A stretch of DNA of 64,000 nucleotides, from positions 94,019 to 158,018 of the IMG/VR virus record IMGVR_UViG_3300037483_001116. One strand, 5' to 3'. This document shows positions 56,001-61,028 of the stretch, in pieces. Position numbers and translations under genes: made by a program. Position 1 is the stretch's first letter, and the number at the start of each line of letters is the position of its first letter. Source of the stretch: a virus. The notes under the pieces were generated by a model. The model was not told the origin of the DNA and did no database searches. It saw only the letters and a list, made by a program, of their open reading frames with translations.

Positions 56001-56307
56001 CCTGCCATCTAGCTGGGGCCGGAAGCAGGGTCAGGACTCCTTTGCCGCAGACTGCGTGCTGCATCGGGATTTTGGCCAGGTCGGCGTGACGGATGATGTG
56101 TTGTTTCTGGCCGGTAGCCAGGTAGAGCCAGGAGTAGTGGCCTTCGATGGTCATGACTTGGGCCTCCGGAGTGGGGTCCCATCTCGCGGCGAGGTGGTGG
56201 GTAGATCTTCCCTCGCCGAGGGCCCTGAGCGCTAGGGGATGGTGTGGGTGTCCATTTTCTGAAAATTCTGGGAGGTCACCCTGAACCCCAGGCATCGATA
56301 TTGACAA
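53004..56307 (-). CDS. Run of small hypothetical genes (e.g. 53004-53216, 53217-53489, 53486-53845, 54014-54298, 54327-54800, 54921-55151, 55126-~55500, 55503-55931, 55915-56307)
   Basis: Coupled ORFs; no recognisable domains. Confidence 0.5.
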
Positions 56308-56322
56308 AATGGTTCTATGTCC

Positions 56323-56825
56323 GCCTCGCCTGCCAGGCCACGCCCTACCCCACCCTACCTAGCCGTGCCTACCTAGCCGTGCCTACCTAGCCGTGCCTAC
56401 CTAGCCGTGCCTGCCTAGCCGTGCCTGCCTAGCCGTGCCTGCCTAGCCGTGCCTGCCTAGCCGTGCCTGCCTAGCCGTGCCTGCCTAGCCGTGCCTACCT
56501 AGCCGTGCCTGCCTAGCCGCGCCTCGCCATGCCTCGCCAGGCCTCGCCATGCCTCGCCAGGCCTCGCCAGGCCTGCCGCACCCTACCTACCCCCGCCCTG
56601 ACACACCTAGCCGGACCTGCCACACCCTGCCACACCATGCCGCGCCGGACGTTGCCTTACCGCACCCAGCCACACCTGCCGCACCAGACCCGACCGCACC
56701 CTGCCCCTGTGGTACCGCGCCCCACCTGCCGTGCCATGCCCCGCCGAGCCTTTCCGCAACACGCCGTGCCTGCCGTGCCATGCCACGCCGTACCGCAACA
56801 CGCCGCGCCGTACCATGCCTGCCGC
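56323..56825 (-). repeat. Pentamer array B: (GGY-NN)n on the minus strand with 4-nt punctuation; includes a 14-bp tandem expansion
   Basis: Plus strand parses as RCC-NN units broken by RCCT; 11 copies of RCCTAGCCGTGCCT at 56357-56510. Confidence 0.9.
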
Positions 56826-56830
56826 GAATC

Positions 56831-57253
56831 TCAGGCTTCAATACGCAGGTCGCCTTCAACGAGGTCCCAAAATTCCTCCAATTCCTCGTAACGGCGGCGC
56901 AAGGACTGCCAATCGCGTTGCATCTCGGCCAGCAGCAGCCGCCGCACCATCGGGTCCTGCATCACCACCGCGGTCGGTTCGTAGGCGTATTTCCTGGTCT
57001 CCGGGTCCTGGATGGCGTGGAAGGCCCGGATAGAAACGGGCTCTCCGCCCTTGGGGCTGGTGTAGCAGATCCGTACCGACCGGATCAGGTTGTGAGCCTG
57101 ATGCCTGCGGTATTTTTCAGCCGCCGCGGTGTCGTTCCACTCGAACCGGAGGTGGAGGGGGTGCTGTTCGTCGCGGGCCACGTCTACAACGAGCGCGGGG
57201 GTCAGCTGCCCGCGCTCGTTGTAGATGGCCTGCAGGTGTTCCCGCAGACTCAT
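56831..57253 (-). CDS. Conserved partner protein of the Cas7/RAMP-like gene (140 aa)
   Basis: LTP..VV..AR....PLH..FEW.D..AAE.YR..QA..LIRSV; located between the RAMP-like gene and array B. Confidence 0.8.
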   Translation of the reverse strand: MSLREHLQAIYNERGQLTPALVVDVARDEQHPLHLRFEWNDTAAAEKYRRHQAHNLIRSVRICYTSPKGGEPVSIRAFHAIQDPETRKYAYEPTAVVMQDPMVRRLLLAEMQRDWQSLRRRYEELEEFWDLVEGDLRIEA

Positions 57254-57262
57254 GGTGTCCTT

Positions 57263-57895
57263 CTACTTGTTGGTGAGGGCCTCGACGTCACGGTCCGGGT
57301 CGATCATGTAGGTGCCCATGTCGCCCTTCTTCTCTGGGCGCCATTCGCCGACGCCGACGCCCATGCCGCCAGCGTCGATGAGGGACAGCACCGACGCCTG
57401 GGTCAGCTGCGAGGTGACATAAGTGACCCGCAGTTCGGTTTTCCACTCCGAAAACTCGGGCCGGTACCGCAGGTCAGTGCCGCCGTTGCCGACCCGGACA
57501 ACATCTTCGCGCATCCTCGGCTCCCCCTCGATAACGGCAAGCTGCTGGCCGTCAACGCCGACTTCGCCGCGGAAGAACAGCACCTGCCGGAGCAGGGTCA
57601 TGGTGACCCCGGCGAAGAACCTGGCCCCACCGATGGTCGCGGCTTTGAACGCAATGACCGGCAGGCCGTAGCCGTCGCCGTTGGTGCGGTAGAACGCCGC
57701 CTCGTACTCAGCCTCCGGGTCCTTGGCCTGTTTGGGGGTTTTGCGGCCCTGCATGGCGTCCAGCATCTGCTTCTTCGCCTTTTCGGAGAAGCGGTGGATG
57801 ATCAACGGCGACGTGCCGACGATGGGAACGATGAGGGTCTCAGCGTCGATGCGGGGAATTTCGATGATGTTGGTGCCCGTTTTTGCTGCTGGCAT
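57263..57895 (-). CDS. Stand-alone Cas7/RAMP-like RNA-binding protein (210 aa; Vipr-like)
   Basis: GGAGAG RBS before ATG 57895. RAMP-like motifs IVGTSPLIIH, LP..AFKAA and RYRPEF..W; C-terminal Gly-rich loop GVGEWRPEKKGDMGTY. Confidence 0.75.
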   Translation of the reverse strand: MPAAKTGTNIIEIPRIDAETLIVPIVGTSPLIIHRFSEKAKKQMLDAMQGRKTPKQAKDPEAEYEAAFYRTNGDGYGLPVIAFKAATIGGARFFAGVTMTLLRQVLFFRGEVGVDGQQLAVIEGEPRMREDVVRVGNGGTDLRYRPEFSEWKTELRVTYVTSQLTQASVLSLIDAGGMGVGVGEWRPEKKGDMGTYMIDPDRDVEALTNK

Positions 57896-57986
57896 TGGTG
57901 AGTTCTCTCCAGATATTCCACTGTGGACAGTTCCCATGCCATACCGCGCCTTCCCCTCCAGCGAGGGGCCGTACTTTGGGGCCTTC

Positions 57987-58492
57987 GCCTGCCGTACCAG
58001 GCCATGCCTAACCTGACCAATCCGGGCCACGCCTTGCCCTGCCTGCCGTACCGGGCCCAGCCATGCCATGCCTCGCCTGCCGGACCTAGCCGAGCCTCGC
58101 CAAACCCTGCCGGGCCAGACCTTGCCTGCCTTACCGAGCCAAACCCGACCACGCCCTTGCACGCCGTGCCAGGCCTTACCTGCCACGCCCAACCGAGCCA
58201 TGCCTTGCGGTACCCCGCCTGCCCAGCCGGACCCTGCCCTGCCGTGCCATACCAAACCCCGCCTCCCCGAACCTGGCCACGCCACACCCCGCGATGCCTG
58301 CCGTACCGGGCCATGCCCTGCCATGCCTTCCCCACCGAACCTGCCTGGCCGGGCCGAGCCTTGCCAAACCCCGACTGGCCCCACCGCGCCTGCCACGCCA
58401 TACCTGGCCCTAACGGACCCCGACTAACCACACCCTGCCTGCCCTGCCCTGCCCTACCCGACCTTGCCCCGCCAAACCATGCCTGCCGTACC
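57987..58492 (-). repeat. Pentamer array A: (GGY-NN)n on the minus strand, ~10 segments delimited by 4-nt units
   Basis: Plus strand: gcct|gccgt accag gccat gccta acctg accaa tccgg gccac gcctt gccct|gcct|gccgt accgg ... Confidence 0.9.
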
Positions 58493-61028
58493 TAGTCAGA
58501 CAGTCCCTTGAGGACAGTTTCAGCGTCTTCGGCCGTCGCGGTGGCCAGCGTGACCAGACCGCTGGGGCCTAGCCGCTTCCCACCAACGGTGAGGGCCTGC
58601 AACTTTTCCTCGTTTTCTGGGGTCACCGCGACGCTGAGGGCCAGCGCCGCGTCGTGTTGGGCAATAGCCCATGGGGCCTGTTCGCCTGACTTCCAGGTCA
58701 GGTGGGCCGGGACCTGGTGGGCGCCGTGGACGGCTGGGTTGTGGAAGCCGCCGGGCAGGAGGCAGACGGGGCATGGGGTTGGTCCAGTGGTCATGTTCGT
58801 TCCCCTGGGTCTCCGACGAGGTCAATCAGGTCGTTGGTGATTTTGTCGACGCGGCTCATCTTGGCTCGTAGACAGGCAACCTCGACGCTCAGTTCCTGGT
58901 TGCGGCGTCTGAGGGCGATGGCCGCGAGATCGTCGTTTTCTGGTTGCTGGCCGCGGGCATTTTCGAGCTGCTGCCGCAGTGCCCCGACCTCAACTTCAAG
59001 GTCGTCGCATTGTTCTTCGAGCTGGCCCCGTTCGTAGCGAAGCGTTTCCAGCTGTTGCCGCAACGGTTCCAGCATCTTGGTCAGTTTGGCTTCAGTTTCG
59101 ACGACGAGGGCCCGGAGTAGTGACTTCAGGGCCTCCTCTGAGCTGCCGGCCCAGGAGCCCCGGACAACGATGCTGGCAAGGACCGAGTGGGGGTCGTTAA
59201 TGGTGGCACAGGCCCGGACCGTGGGGCCACTGCCGCCTTCGTAGCTCAGCGCATAGGCGTCGGTCATGGCTGTTCCCCCTTGAGGGCTCGCAGTGCATCG
59301 ACTTCGGCGACGGCGGCGCGGGCCAGGCCCCACGCAAGGGGCTTGTCGCGTTCATAGTCGGCGTCGCGGGGGCCGTCTTTCAGGTTCACCAGAACCCGCA
59401 GGGCATAGTCCAGTGTGGACACCAGTTGGCGCATAGCGTCCAGTTCTGCAACGAGGTCAGGTTCATCAGCACCGTGGAGGTCGTCGAGTAGGACCTGGCG
59501 GCTTCCGTCTTCGACCACTTCGGTAGCCCCGGGTTCGGATGTCGGGGCGGCCCGCATGGGCCTGGGGGTTGGTTCCCTGTCCATGGGGGCTCCGATGACG
59601 GGTGCGCTGGCCATAACGGCGGTGAGCCATGCACTGGGTTTGTTGGCGTCGATGTGCCGGTTGATGCGGGCCAGCTGCTTGAAGCTGTAGACGGCGACGG
59701 CGGTGAAAACCAGAGCCGGGGTCAGCCACCAGGTGTGGTGCTCGATGAGCTGAACGGCGCTGAAGAACAGAACAAAAAGGCCAGCCGCGAGGGGAAGGAC
59801 CTGGGCCCACTTCTTCATGTCAGCGTGGATTAGCATCTCGTGGACCAACCACAGGGCCCCAGCGCCCACCAAGGTGCTGAGGATGATCAGGGCGAGTCGC
59901 ATGGGGTTTCCTTTAGGTGGGTTTCATGGTGACGACGATGATGAGGGTGAGGGCGACGAGGGCGGCGCAGGCAAAGCCGGTCGCCACCCAGGCGTTGAGG
60001 TTGTCACGGGTTCTGACGGTGAAGATCGCCACGTAGGCGCCAACGACGCTGGCAGCCATGGACACCAGAAGCCAGGCGACGGCGGTCAACATCCGCTCCA
60101 GGGGGACTCGGTGACGAGGAGGCCTTCTGCGGCCAGGTGGTCAAGGGCGACGCGGGCCTGCCGAATGTGGTCCATGCAGACACCGGGTCCGTCGTGGGCC
60201 ATGCGACACAGCACTGTAGCCAGACGGTTTTCTGTTTGCCCGGTCCAGGCCGGCGTGGTCACGAGTCCCGGTCCTCGGCCGGCGGGTGCCACAGGCCGGA
60301 CAGAACCGGATCGGGGCCTATGTACAGGATGCAGGCGCAGGTGCTTACCACCCTGCCTGGGGTGAACTCATCAACCTGGCATTTGCGGCCATCTTTGTGG
60401 CAGTTGTAGCCATGTTTGCACATACAAACCGGCTGCGATGGTCCTGATTTGACTTTGCGGCTGTACATGCGGCCCAGGAGATAGCCGCTAAACACCGTGG
60501 CGACGGAGCCCATGGTTTGGGCGATGACGATGCCGATGGTCATGATTCTAGGTCCTTTGCCTCTAGGTACTCGGCCTGGAGATTGCGCTGAGATTGGGAC
60601 ACCTGGGCCCGTCGTGACAAGTCGCCGGTGGCGACGACGTCTTCAGCAAGGCGGGCGCTGGCTTCGCCCCAGAAGCAGATGGCATGGGTCCGGCCAGCGC
60701 GGTTGCTGCCAGCATCGAGGTCGAAGATGTCGCAGCAGACCAGTTCGGCGCGGATACGTTCGGCGATGTCGGCGCCGGCTCGCCGGTAGCCGCGTTCTTC
60801 CGCGGCGGCGACGCGGTCCAACGGCTCGGCGCTTATTCCCTGCTCCTTGCCGGCGGGCTCGGGGGCCAGTTTCTTGAGGCAGTTTTTGCACCGGTCGCAG
60901 TTGCTCTCACGCCAGTCGGTGCTGAACTGGCCGCAGAGGGAAACCCTGGTCCCAATGACATGGACAGCCCGGACCGCGTGCTGGGCCGTGCCTCGTGGCC
61001 GTGTCAGCCAGAACACTTCGACGGTCAC
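58492..61028 (-). CDS. Run of hypothetical/membrane genes (58492-58794, 58791-~59267, 59264-59902, 60259-60543, 60540-61028 and others)
   Basis: Coupled ORFs; several TM segments and Cys motifs. Confidence 0.5.

What the first reader, a model, noticed from the sequence alone, without database searches (positions are those of the whole stretch)
57987..58492. Array grammar: 4-nt punctuators divide the pentamer tract into guide-sized segments
Seen in sequence: the 5-nt phase is broken regularly by a 4-nt unit (plus strand RCCT, giving GGCAGGY on the minus strand). This yields segments of about 10, 6, 9, 10, 7, 15, 7-8, 9, 9 and 8 pentamers, each with a different NN string. Array B shows the same pattern (8-11 pentamers per segment in 56571-56825). 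Inference: the punctuator is a processing site or filament boundary, making the tract a multi-guide array analogous to CRISPR. A 2+1 read-out could skip codon wobble positions and so tolerate synonymous escape.
Basis: partly seen in the sequence, partly recalled or inferred. Interest (0 to 1): 0.75.

Follow-up and report, generated by a model that had tools for sequence, protein, structure and literature searches.

The report
VIPR guide array punctuated by GGCA
The five-base repeat tract is the guide-RNA array of a phage VIPR system, a CRISPR-related DNA silencer described in 2026 preprints; the four-base GGCA "punctuators" are real and mark the borders between guides, an architecture those preprints already drew as "staggered arrays".

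Summary
On the gene (minus) strand both tracts are GGYNN pentamers. In 28 of 29 places the 5-nt phase breaks by exactly -1, through a 4-nt unit: GGCA 23 times, GGTA 4, GGAA 1.

The 210-aa gene between the tracts folds as a Cas7-type RAMP, so this is a VIPR locus: Vipr, a small accessory gene and vrRNA arrays. It has the "staggered", tail-less architecture of fig. S18 in bioRxiv 10.64898/2026.04.26.720920.

Across about 75 related viral loci, 833 of 910 phase breaks are 4-nt steps, and the punctuator logo is G.98 G.98 C.98 A.91. Segments peak at 9-10 pentamers plus GGCA.

In relatives, whole punctuator-to-punctuator segments match genes of rival phages under the published rule of two bases read and one skipped, with the skipped base on the codon wobble position.

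For this window's own guides I found no convincing target. No RNA data exist, so cleavage site versus filament boundary stays open.

This scan has met the same kind of array on at least five other genomes. Verdict: a real feature and a new member of a known kind.

The parts
57989..58492 (-). vrRNA array A (upstream of vipr): 103 GGYNN units in 12 segments, starting right after the stop codon of the upstream gene with GTAC-GGCA
   Evidence: All 11 internal breaks are 4-nt. No Rfam family. No excess RNA structure, z = -0.54.
58220..58298 (-). Guide A7, the longest (15 pentamers + GGCA). Its first 9 NN pairs are shared with a guide of the closest relative G001, although the GGY scaffold letters differ.
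58342..58390 (-). Guide A4 (9 pentamers + GGCA). Seven NN pairs are shared with a G001 guide, but the borders are shifted.
58127..58180 (-). Guide A9 (10 pentamers + GGCA).
   Evidence: No exact target in IMG/VR.
57990..58043 (-). Guide A12 (10 pentamers + closing GGCA at 57990-57993), the last guide before vipr.
   Evidence: No target found.
57263..57895 (-). vipr: a 210-aa Cas7-like RAMP with a glycine-rich loop (invariant G..G.G.GEWRPE).
   Evidence: 3420 homologues. Invariant columns listed. AF2 model pLDDT 74. All top Foldseek PDB hits are Csm3, type VII Cas7, Cmr4 or Cas7-11. phrog_4652.
56831..57253 (-). Candidate vap (accessory gene), 140 aa, 10 nt downstream of vipr.
   Evidence: phrog_15946. 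137 homologues, including Streptomyces and Naumannella proteins. AF2 pLDDT 85. No significant PDB fold match, only weak winged-helix-like rows with E >= 0.4.
56321..56823 (-). vrRNA array B (downstream of vap). It opens with GGCA at 56820-56823 and has 103 units.
56771..56819 (-). Guide B1 (9 pentamers + GGCA), the first guide of array B.
   Evidence: It has exact 18/18 gapped matches to codons 1-9 of a small promoter-proximal gene in three related 47%-GC viral contigs. I judge this probably chance.
56618..56676 (-). Guide B5 (11 pentamers + GGCA).
   Evidence: No exact target in IMG/VR or GTDB genomes.
56370..56573 (-). Slippage-expanded zone. Ten 14-nt copies (two pentamers + GGCA/GGTA) at 56370-56509, then 10/20-nt tandem copies at 56510-56573. 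These are too short or too repetitive to be specific guides.
   Evidence: TRF and parse. A contig of a related strain in run X2 joins 56370 to 56595 (low-confidence joint).

Best explanation
This is a VIPR locus of an uncultivated 158-kb phage, probably of an actinobacterium. Two arrays on the gene strand flank vipr (a Cas7-like protein) and a small accessory gene.

Each array has the form GGCA-(GGYNN)n-GGCA-(GGYNN)m-GGCA and so on. Each run of pentamers is one guide. In the published mechanism (SUSP1 system) one Vipr protomer binds one pentamer and the GGY bases are flipped away. The NN pairs then read double-stranded DNA as NNxNNx, so the skipped base usually falls on codon position 3.

The 4-nt GGCA unit shifts the GGY register by -1. 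A Vipr filament growing in phase along one guide therefore cannot continue into the next one. This inferred register break, not an RNA hairpin, a ribozyme or a long repeat, defines where a guide ends.

Shown here: the grammar, its conservation, the Cas7 fold, and the codon-phased, whole-segment targets in relatives. Taken from the literature: protomer-per-pentamer binding and DNA silencing. Inferred: that the register shift itself terminates the filament. Whether an RNase also cuts at GGCA|GG, or trims to the protected segment, is open.
For: - Grammar in the window.
- Cas7 fold of the neighbouring gene.
- Family-wide conservation: 833 of 910 breaks are 4-nt and 639 are GGCA. The punctuator logo is G.98 G.98 C.98 A.91. 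The next unit is GGC in 88% of cases. NN positions are near-uniform. Segment length peaks at 10-11 units including the punctuator.
- Arrays are co-oriented with vipr in nearly all loci.
- Every array examined begins with GGCA or GGTA.
- Targets in relatives. A G001 guide matches 16/16 to codons 7-14 (IEWTDATW) of a gene in phage G003, with the skip on the GC3 phase. Four of 56 first-in-array guides hit vipr genes of other loci under the 1-nt skip. There were no such hits under skips of 0, 2 or 3, none in 560 shuffles and none among 510 other guides.
- These matches run from the first to the last pentamer of a segment, and the constant A(G) of the punctuator is not matched.
- Among guides shared between loci, NN differs less (0.097 per site) than the scaffold (0.21 per site), and 16 of 27 share the 5' border.
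- Literature: the VIPR rule, the wobble alignment and the staggered arrays; one protomer per repeat and a GGY pocket spanning two protomers.
Against: - No RNA data exist for this phage or its relatives, so transcription, strand and RNA ends are inferred from orientation and from the published family.
- None of the window's guides has a convincing natural target.
- About 29% of segments family-wide, and several here (2, 3, 5, 6 units and the 14-nt repeats), are shorter than the published 9-16 repeats, so not every segment can be a specific guide.
- At loose thresholds, all-against-all target hits in 2.9 Mb were no more numerous than for shuffled guides (14 vs 13). Only the near-perfect hits carry weight.
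Confidence: 0.85

Rival explanations
1. The 4-nt units are neutral scars of how the array grows (slippage or recombination at GGCAGG microhomology). They do not define guide borders; guides would be set by something else, or the whole tract would be read continuously.
For: Array B contains obvious slippage products that carry the punctuator along. A related strain differs by 5- and 10-nt indels and by block skips. Borders of two guides shared with G001 are not identical.
Against: Scars would be expected as +1 and -1 in similar numbers, yet 833 of 910 are -1 and the sequence is fixed as GGCA. Arrays start with GGCA. Near-perfect target matches span whole segments and stop at the punctuator. A -1 shift necessarily breaks the GGY register on which protomer binding depends.
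Confidence: 0.06
2. Part or all of the tract acts as a decoy or sponge: many short in-phase GGY runs soak up Vipr protein of rivals (or the phage's own), without carrying target information.
For: The ten 14-nt copies (two pentamers each) and other 2-6-unit segments cannot specify a target. Decoy strategies around VIPR are published for satellites (abstract).
Against: Most segments have unique, near-uniform NN content, with a length mode equal to published guide lengths. Relatives' segments have codon-phased targets. The slippage zone seems absent in a related strain, which suggests a recent, dispensable expansion.
Confidence: 0.05
3. The tract works at the DNA level (protein-binding iteron or centromere array, G-quadruplex region or recombination hotspot) or is protein-coding. 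Long ORFs cross it, e.g. 57263-58396 minus and 57923-58495 plus.
For: Long open frames overlap the tract. GG every 5 nt could form two-tier G4s (inference only).
Against: A 5-nt period with -1 shifts is incompatible with coding. The tract is strictly co-oriented with a Cas7-like gene in about 75 loci. NN is hypervariable while GGY is fixed. The published family has the RNA shown bound to the protein.
Confidence: 0.02

Closest known systems
VIPR systems with 'staggered' vrRNA arrays (bioRxiv 10.64898/2026.04.26.720920, fig. S18 legend)
   Same: A lone Cas7-like Vipr gene with a small accessory gene. GGYNN tracts without tails, in which the end of one guide is the start of the next by a 1-nt overlap. 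That overlap is the same thing as the GGCA(G) 4-nt unit seen here.
   Different: The preprint states that only the ribozyme and single-vrRNA architectures were confirmed by small-RNA sequencing, not the staggered one. In the held text it gives no consensus for the junction. Here the junction is quantified (GGCA, then GGC-R) in an actinophage clade, and whole-segment targets are shown computationally.
Type II VIPR of Escherichia phage SUSP1 and a Pseudomonas fulva prophage
   Same: GGY/NN code, 1-nt-skip reading of dsDNA, wobble alignment, targets in rival mobile elements and in rival vipr genes, and a Vipr filament with one protomer per repeat.
   Different: In SUSP1 each vrRNA has 9-16 repeats followed by an invariant 3' tail with a pseudoknot. 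Here there is no tail, no excess structure, and guides abut through a 4-nt unit.
Hammerhead-ribozyme-interspersed VIPR arrays (same preprint, fig. S19)
   Same: Multi-guide arrays of GGYNN tracts.
   Different: No ribozyme or any other Rfam family occurs between segments here. Only 4 nt separate the guides.
Class 1 CRISPR arrays and Cas7 backbones (type III Csm3/Cmr4)
   Same: A Cas7-fold protein that polymerises on a guide with a fixed nucleotide period and flips bases out of the duplex. Many guides are encoded in one array. In type III the protein filament acts as a ruler for the mature 3' end.
   Different: No 25-40-nt direct repeats, no Cas6, no cas1/cas2 and no spacer acquisition. The period is 5 rather than 6 nt, and the guide is gapped, with 2 of 5 bases informative.

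Membership tests
VIPR system | Stand-alone RAMP (Cas7-like) Vipr protein of about 20 kDa next to the repeats | tested here: met
   The 210-aa ORF 57263-57895 has an AF2 model of pLDDT 74. All leading Foldseek PDB hits are Csm3, type VII Cas7, Cmr4 or Cas7-11, with best E 8e-5 and probability 1.00. A glycine-rich loop is invariant in the alignment.
VIPR system | Tandem GGYNN (YNNGG) pentamers with conserved GGY and hypervariable NN, on the strand of vipr | tested here: met
   In middle units GGY is G .91, G .80, Y .96, while NN is near-uniform. Arrays are co-oriented with vipr in about 75 loci.
VIPR system | Small accessory gene (vap) in the operon | tested here: inconclusive
   A conserved 140-aa gene follows vipr. 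Its fold has no significant PDB match. Sequences of vap1-6 were not available for comparison.
VIPR system | Guides recognise DNA as NNx (1-nt skip), with the skip usually on codon position 3 | tested here: met
   Met for relatives of the same Vipr clade. One match is 16/16 and three are 18-25 of 20-28, in frame, and found only under skip 1. For the window's own guides the test is inconclusive: no convincing target.
VIPR system | vrRNAs are expressed and co-purify with Vipr | not testable with these tools
   No RNA run holds the stretch.
VIPR, staggered-array architecture | Adjacent guides overlap by 1 nt (a -1 register shift), with no tail between them | tested here: met
   28 of 29 breaks in the window are 4-nt and 833 of 910 family-wide. 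Parser bias is excluded.
VIPR, type II (SUSP1-like) architecture | Invariant structured 3' tail (pseudoknot) after each 9-16-repeat tract | tested here: not met
   Segments abut through GGCA only. Fold z-score is -0.54. No Rfam hit.
CRISPR array | Identical direct repeats of about 25-40 nt alternating with unique spacers, with cas1/cas2 nearby | tested here: not met
   TRF and the parse show only 5-nt units and 4-nt punctuators. Neighbouring genes have no Cas1/Cas2 Pfam or NCBIfam hits.

The most novel reading that the evidence does not exclude
The 4-nt GGCA is the complete boundary signal of tail-less VIPR arrays. In this reading a one-base register shift, rather than an RNA structure, ribozyme or Cas6-type cut, ends each Vipr filament. 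Because neighbours share a G, adjacent guides would compete for the same transcript. A positional rule may be added: in this clade the first guide after the operon is preferentially aimed at the vipr gene of rival phages while sparing the phage's own allele.
Probability: 0.3. Interest if true: 0.55.

Novelty: new member of a known kind. Interest (0 to 1): 0.3.

Why it matters
VIPR is a newly described, minimal RNA-guided DNA-recognition system. How multi-guide arrays without tails or ribozymes are divided into guides has not been shown experimentally.

This locus and its roughly 75 relatives give a precise, testable junction rule: GGCA followed by GGC-R, with guides of 9-10 pentamers. They also show that cultured, genetically tractable actinophages (Mycobacterium phage Saal and relatives, Gordonia phage Pipp) carry the same grammar. 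The maturation question can therefore be settled at the bench.

For genome annotation, such tracts are easily mis-called as genes. One is annotated as a CDS in phage Pipp.

Tried and rejected
**RNA evidence.** No RNA holder is listed for the stretch, so RNA ends could not be examined.

**Known RNA families and signals.** There are no Rfam matches at E <= 1. There are no sigma-70-like promoters, and the single terminator-like site is below the shuffle expectation. That scan is poorly suited to actinophages.

**Self-targets.** None above chance in the 158-kb genome.

**Exact gapped-pattern scans for the window's guides.**
- A7 core (9 units): 0 hits in IMG/VR. 4 hits in JGI metagenomes and 7 in GTDB genomes, none extending beyond the seed and spread over unrelated phyla, so chance.
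- A4: 1 hit, in an AT-rich tRNA-like non-coding site, so chance.
- A9, A12 and B5: 0 hits in IMG/VR.
- B5: 0 hits in GTDB genomes.
- A12, with up to 3 mismatches, in 50 VIPR-bearing viral records: 0 hits.
- B1: 18/18 hits at the start codon of a small gene in three related 47%-GC contigs, plus one unrelated hit. About 1-3 chance hits are expected for 18 bases, and the contigs look like phages of Proteobacteria. This is kept only as a lead.

**Other target tests.** No window guide matches any vipr gene of 78 loci at 80% or better beyond shuffle level. An all-against-all scan of 499 guides on 2.9 Mb at loose thresholds gave 14 hits against 13 for shuffles, so there is no bulk enrichment.

**vap.** The fold has no significant PDB match, and there are no Pfam or NCBIfam hits for vipr or vap.

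**Limits reached.** Searches at 80% NN identity against whole collections, as in the preprint, were not possible with the exact-pattern tool.

Full report
**1. The observation**

Reading 56200-59000 shows two C-rich tracts on the plus strand built of NNRCC pentamers, which are GGYNN on the minus strand. All neighbouring genes lie on the minus strand.

A count of RCC positions modulo 5 shows long in-phase runs. At every break the phase falls by exactly one.

I then parsed the minus strand with a dynamic-programming chain that rewards GGY and penalises steps of 3, 4, 6 and 7 nt equally.
- Array A (57989-58492) has 103 units and 11 breaks, all 4-nt: GGCA ten times and GGAA once. A closing GGCA lies at 57990-57993.
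- Array B (56321-56823) has 103 units and 18 breaks. Seventeen are 4-nt (GGCA 13, GGTA 4) and one is 6-nt.

The parser is not biased. On simulated arrays with equal numbers of planted 4- and 6-nt breaks it recovered 1001 and 981. The probability that at least 28 of 29 breaks are -1 by chance is 5.6e-8. The probability that at least 23 of 28 end in CA is 1e-11.

For array B the '8-11' statement holds for four segments, but two shorter ones (3 and 5 units) also lie in that range. The distal part of array B (56370-56573) is tandem slippage: ten 14-nt copies of two pentamers plus a punctuator, then 10/20-nt copies.

**2. What it is**

Between the arrays lie a 210-aa ORF (57263-57895) and a 140-aa ORF (56831-57253). 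Neither has Pfam or NCBIfam matches; they match PHROGs of unknown function.

The 210-aa protein has 3420 homologues in the large protein collection. It carries an invariant glycine-rich loop ending in GEWRPE. An AlphaFold2 model (pLDDT 74) finds only Cas7-family RAMPs at the top of a Foldseek search of the PDB: Csm3, type VII Cas7, Cmr4 and Cas7-11. The best E-value is 8e-5 with probability 1.00.

[quoted passage not shown] It describes VIPR systems:
- a lone RAMP protein (Vipr) and an accessory gene (vap);
- vrRNAs made of 9-16 GGY/NN pentamers, whose NN pairs read double-stranded DNA with one skipped base per unit, usually the codon wobble base;
- several array architectures, among them 'staggered arrays with overlapping vrRNAs'. 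The legend of fig. [quoted passage not shown]

Written as GGCAG|GYNN with a shared G, that is exactly the 4-nt punctuator of this finding. The text says that only the ribozyme-interspersed and single-vrRNA architectures were confirmed by small-RNA sequencing.

A companion structural preprint (10.64898/2026.04.26.720927) reports that each protomer binds one repeat. It also reports that the GGY bases are held by pockets formed by two adjacent protomers.

**3. Is the grammar conserved?**

The window belongs to a 158-kb IMG/VR virus record. I fetched about 80 viral loci encoding relatives of the Vipr protein, at 42-94% identity, and parsed every GGY-dense tract.
- Arrays lie almost always on the vipr strand.
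- Of 910 phase breaks, 833 are 4-nt steps, against 35 of 6 nt, 27 of 7 nt and 15 of 3 nt. The 4-nt unit is GGCA in 639 cases.
- In 477 cleanly delimited segments of at least 8 units, the punctuator logo is G .98, G .98, C .98, A .91. The following unit begins GGC in 88% of cases, with a purine next in 80%. NN positions elsewhere are near-uniform.
- Segment length, counting the punctuator, peaks at 10-11 units. There is a second, broad population of short segments of 1-6 units, about 29% of the total.
- Every array whose start I inspected opens with GGCA or GGTA just before the first guide, as do both arrays of the window.

The same grammar is present in cultured phages. In Gordonia phage Pipp the array is annotated as protein-coding 'gene 43'. 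Mycobacterium phage Saal also carries it.

**4. Are segments guides?**

No RNA run holds this stretch, so I tested the idea through targets.

I assembled 48 whole viral contigs (2.9 Mb) that carry this Vipr clade. I scanned all guides against them under skip rules 0-3, with shuffled-order controls. At loose thresholds there is no bulk enrichment: 14 hits against 13 for shuffles. The near-perfect hits, however, are informative.

- **A guide of the closest relative.** G001 has a Vipr 94% identical to the window's. One of its guides matches 16/16 to codons 7-14 (IEWTDATW) of a gene in phage G003, in frame, with the skip on the GC3 phase.
- **Anti-vipr guides.** Against the vipr genes of 78 loci, at no more than 11% mismatches, 4 of 56 first-in-array guides hit under the 1-nt-skip rule. 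None hit under skips of 0, 2 or 3. None of 560 shuffles hit, and none of 510 non-first guides hit.
- **Frame and extent.** All these hits are in codon frame. They run from the first to the last pentamer of the segment and do not include the constant A(G) of the punctuator.
- **Self-avoidance.** Each guide matches its own phage's vipr worse than foreign alleles: 15/20, 20/28, 12/20 and 13/16 for self against 19/20, 25/28, 18/20 and 16/16 for foreign. This echoes the self-avoidance reported for the SUSP1 family.
- **The window as a target.** The window's own vipr is matched 18/20 by one such foreign guide.

Guide content is hypervariable. Among 636 segments, only 27 inter-locus pairs share at least 7 NN pairs. 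In those pairs the NN letters differ less (0.097 per site) than the 'conserved' scaffold (0.21 per site), and 16 of 27 share the same 5' border.

The closest relative has much longer arrays (178 and 242 units) and shares only two guide cores with the window. Contigs of a related strain in another sediment sample differ in the arrays by 5- and 10-nt indels and by block skips. The flanking genes differ mainly by substitutions (the joints are low-confidence).

The NN strings are neither invariant nor purely slippage-derived, although part of array B is.

**5. The window's own guides**

I found no convincing target. There are no self-targets.

Exact gapped scans for A7 (core), A4, A9, A12, B5 and B1 gave nothing or only chance-level hits. 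These covered IMG/VR, the A7 core in JGI metagenomes, and B5 and the A7 core in GTDB genomes.

The one striking hit is B1. It matches 18/18 to codons 1-9 (MTAVATVIT) of a small gene lying about 30 nt behind a near-consensus sigma-70 promoter, in three related 47%-GC contigs. However, one to three chance hits are expected for 18 specified bases. The contigs weakly resemble phages of Ralstonia and Acidovorax. The window's clade belongs to phages of Actinomycetota: Gordonia and Mycobacterium phages, plus Streptomyces and Naumannella homologues. I therefore treat B1 as a lead only.

**6. Mechanism**

The best-supported reading is a tail-less multi-guide VIPR array. GGCA shifts the GGY register by -1, so a protomer-per-pentamer filament cannot run on into the next guide.

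The arrays have no excess RNA structure (z = -0.54). There is no ribozyme or other Rfam family. No Cas6-like gene lies nearby. The 4-nt unit is therefore the only constant element available as a boundary.

Whether a host RNase cuts at the junction or trims to the protected segment cannot be decided here. The same is true of whether neighbouring guides, which share a G, exclude each other on one transcript. Short segments and the 14-nt repeat zone are unexplained; they may be decaying or newly expanded material, or decoys.

**7. Novelty and verdict**

The kind of system, the gapped code, the wobble logic and the staggered architecture are already in the 2026 preprints.

This locus is a new member of a known kind.
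- a quantitative junction rule for one large actinophage clade;
- computational support that punctuator-delimited segments are the functional guides;
- a positional bias, in which first guides are aimed at rival vipr genes;
- pointers to cultured phages in which maturation can be tested.

Noticed in passing
L023:3601-3660, L036, L045 and L075 (first segments of their arrays); window 57263-57895: In this clade the first guide of an array is preferentially aimed at the vipr gene of other phages. Four of 56 first guides hit, against 0 of 510 other guides, and only under the 1-nt-skip rule. Each matches its own vipr worse than foreign alleles. The window's vipr is matched 18/20 by the L023 guide, at window coordinate about 57306.
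   Followed up: yes
L253:3114-3383 (Gordonia phage Pipp, MN234179.1 33093-33362): The annotated 'gene 43 hypothetical protein' is a GGYNN/GGCA vrRNA array directly after the Vipr homologue (gene 42), so the CDS call is probably spurious. Mycobacterium phage Saal has a similar array at L254:2101-2347, next to its immunity region.
   Followed up: partly
G001:61343-61640 (+), G001:129518-129833 (-), G002:55497-55887 (+), G002:71615-75628 (-): Relatives carry extra arrays far from vipr, some on the opposite strand ('solo' arrays). One relative has a 4-kb array of about 815 units with unusually short segments. The window's genome has only the two arrays.
   Followed up: no
L002:5443-5486 (guide) and G003:105553-105575 (target): A guide of the closest relative matches 16/16 to codons 7-14 (IEWTDATW) at the start of a gene in another VIPR-bearing phage. 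From memory, the N-terminal motif looks like the phage Gp37/Gp68 (DUF5131) family; this was not tested.
   Followed up: partly
window 56771-56819 (guide B1); L251:10777-10802, L249:1759-1784, L250:911-936: B1 spells, with one base skipped per codon, the first nine codons of a 117-aa gene that sits behind a near-consensus TTGACA-17-TATACT promoter in three related 47%-GC viral contigs. Third-codon positions differ among the three. The GC and host mismatch with the window's phage argues for chance, but the start-codon placement is unusual.
   Followed up: partly
window 56370-56573: The slippage zone of array B breaks Logan's assembly of the source sample. It appears to be skipped (56370 joined to 56595) in a related strain from another sediment run, which suggests a recent, strain-specific expansion.
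   Followed up: partly
window 57263-58396 (-) and 57923-58495 (+): Long open reading frames of 377 aa and 190 aa run through array A. Gene callers could extend vipr upstream or call a false gene on the opposite strand.
   Followed up: no
all loci: In the few guides shared between different phages, the NN letters are better conserved than the GGY scaffold (0.097 vs 0.21 differences per site). Shared guides sit at different ranks in their arrays. This fits selection on guide content, or exchange or convergence of guides.
   Followed up: partly
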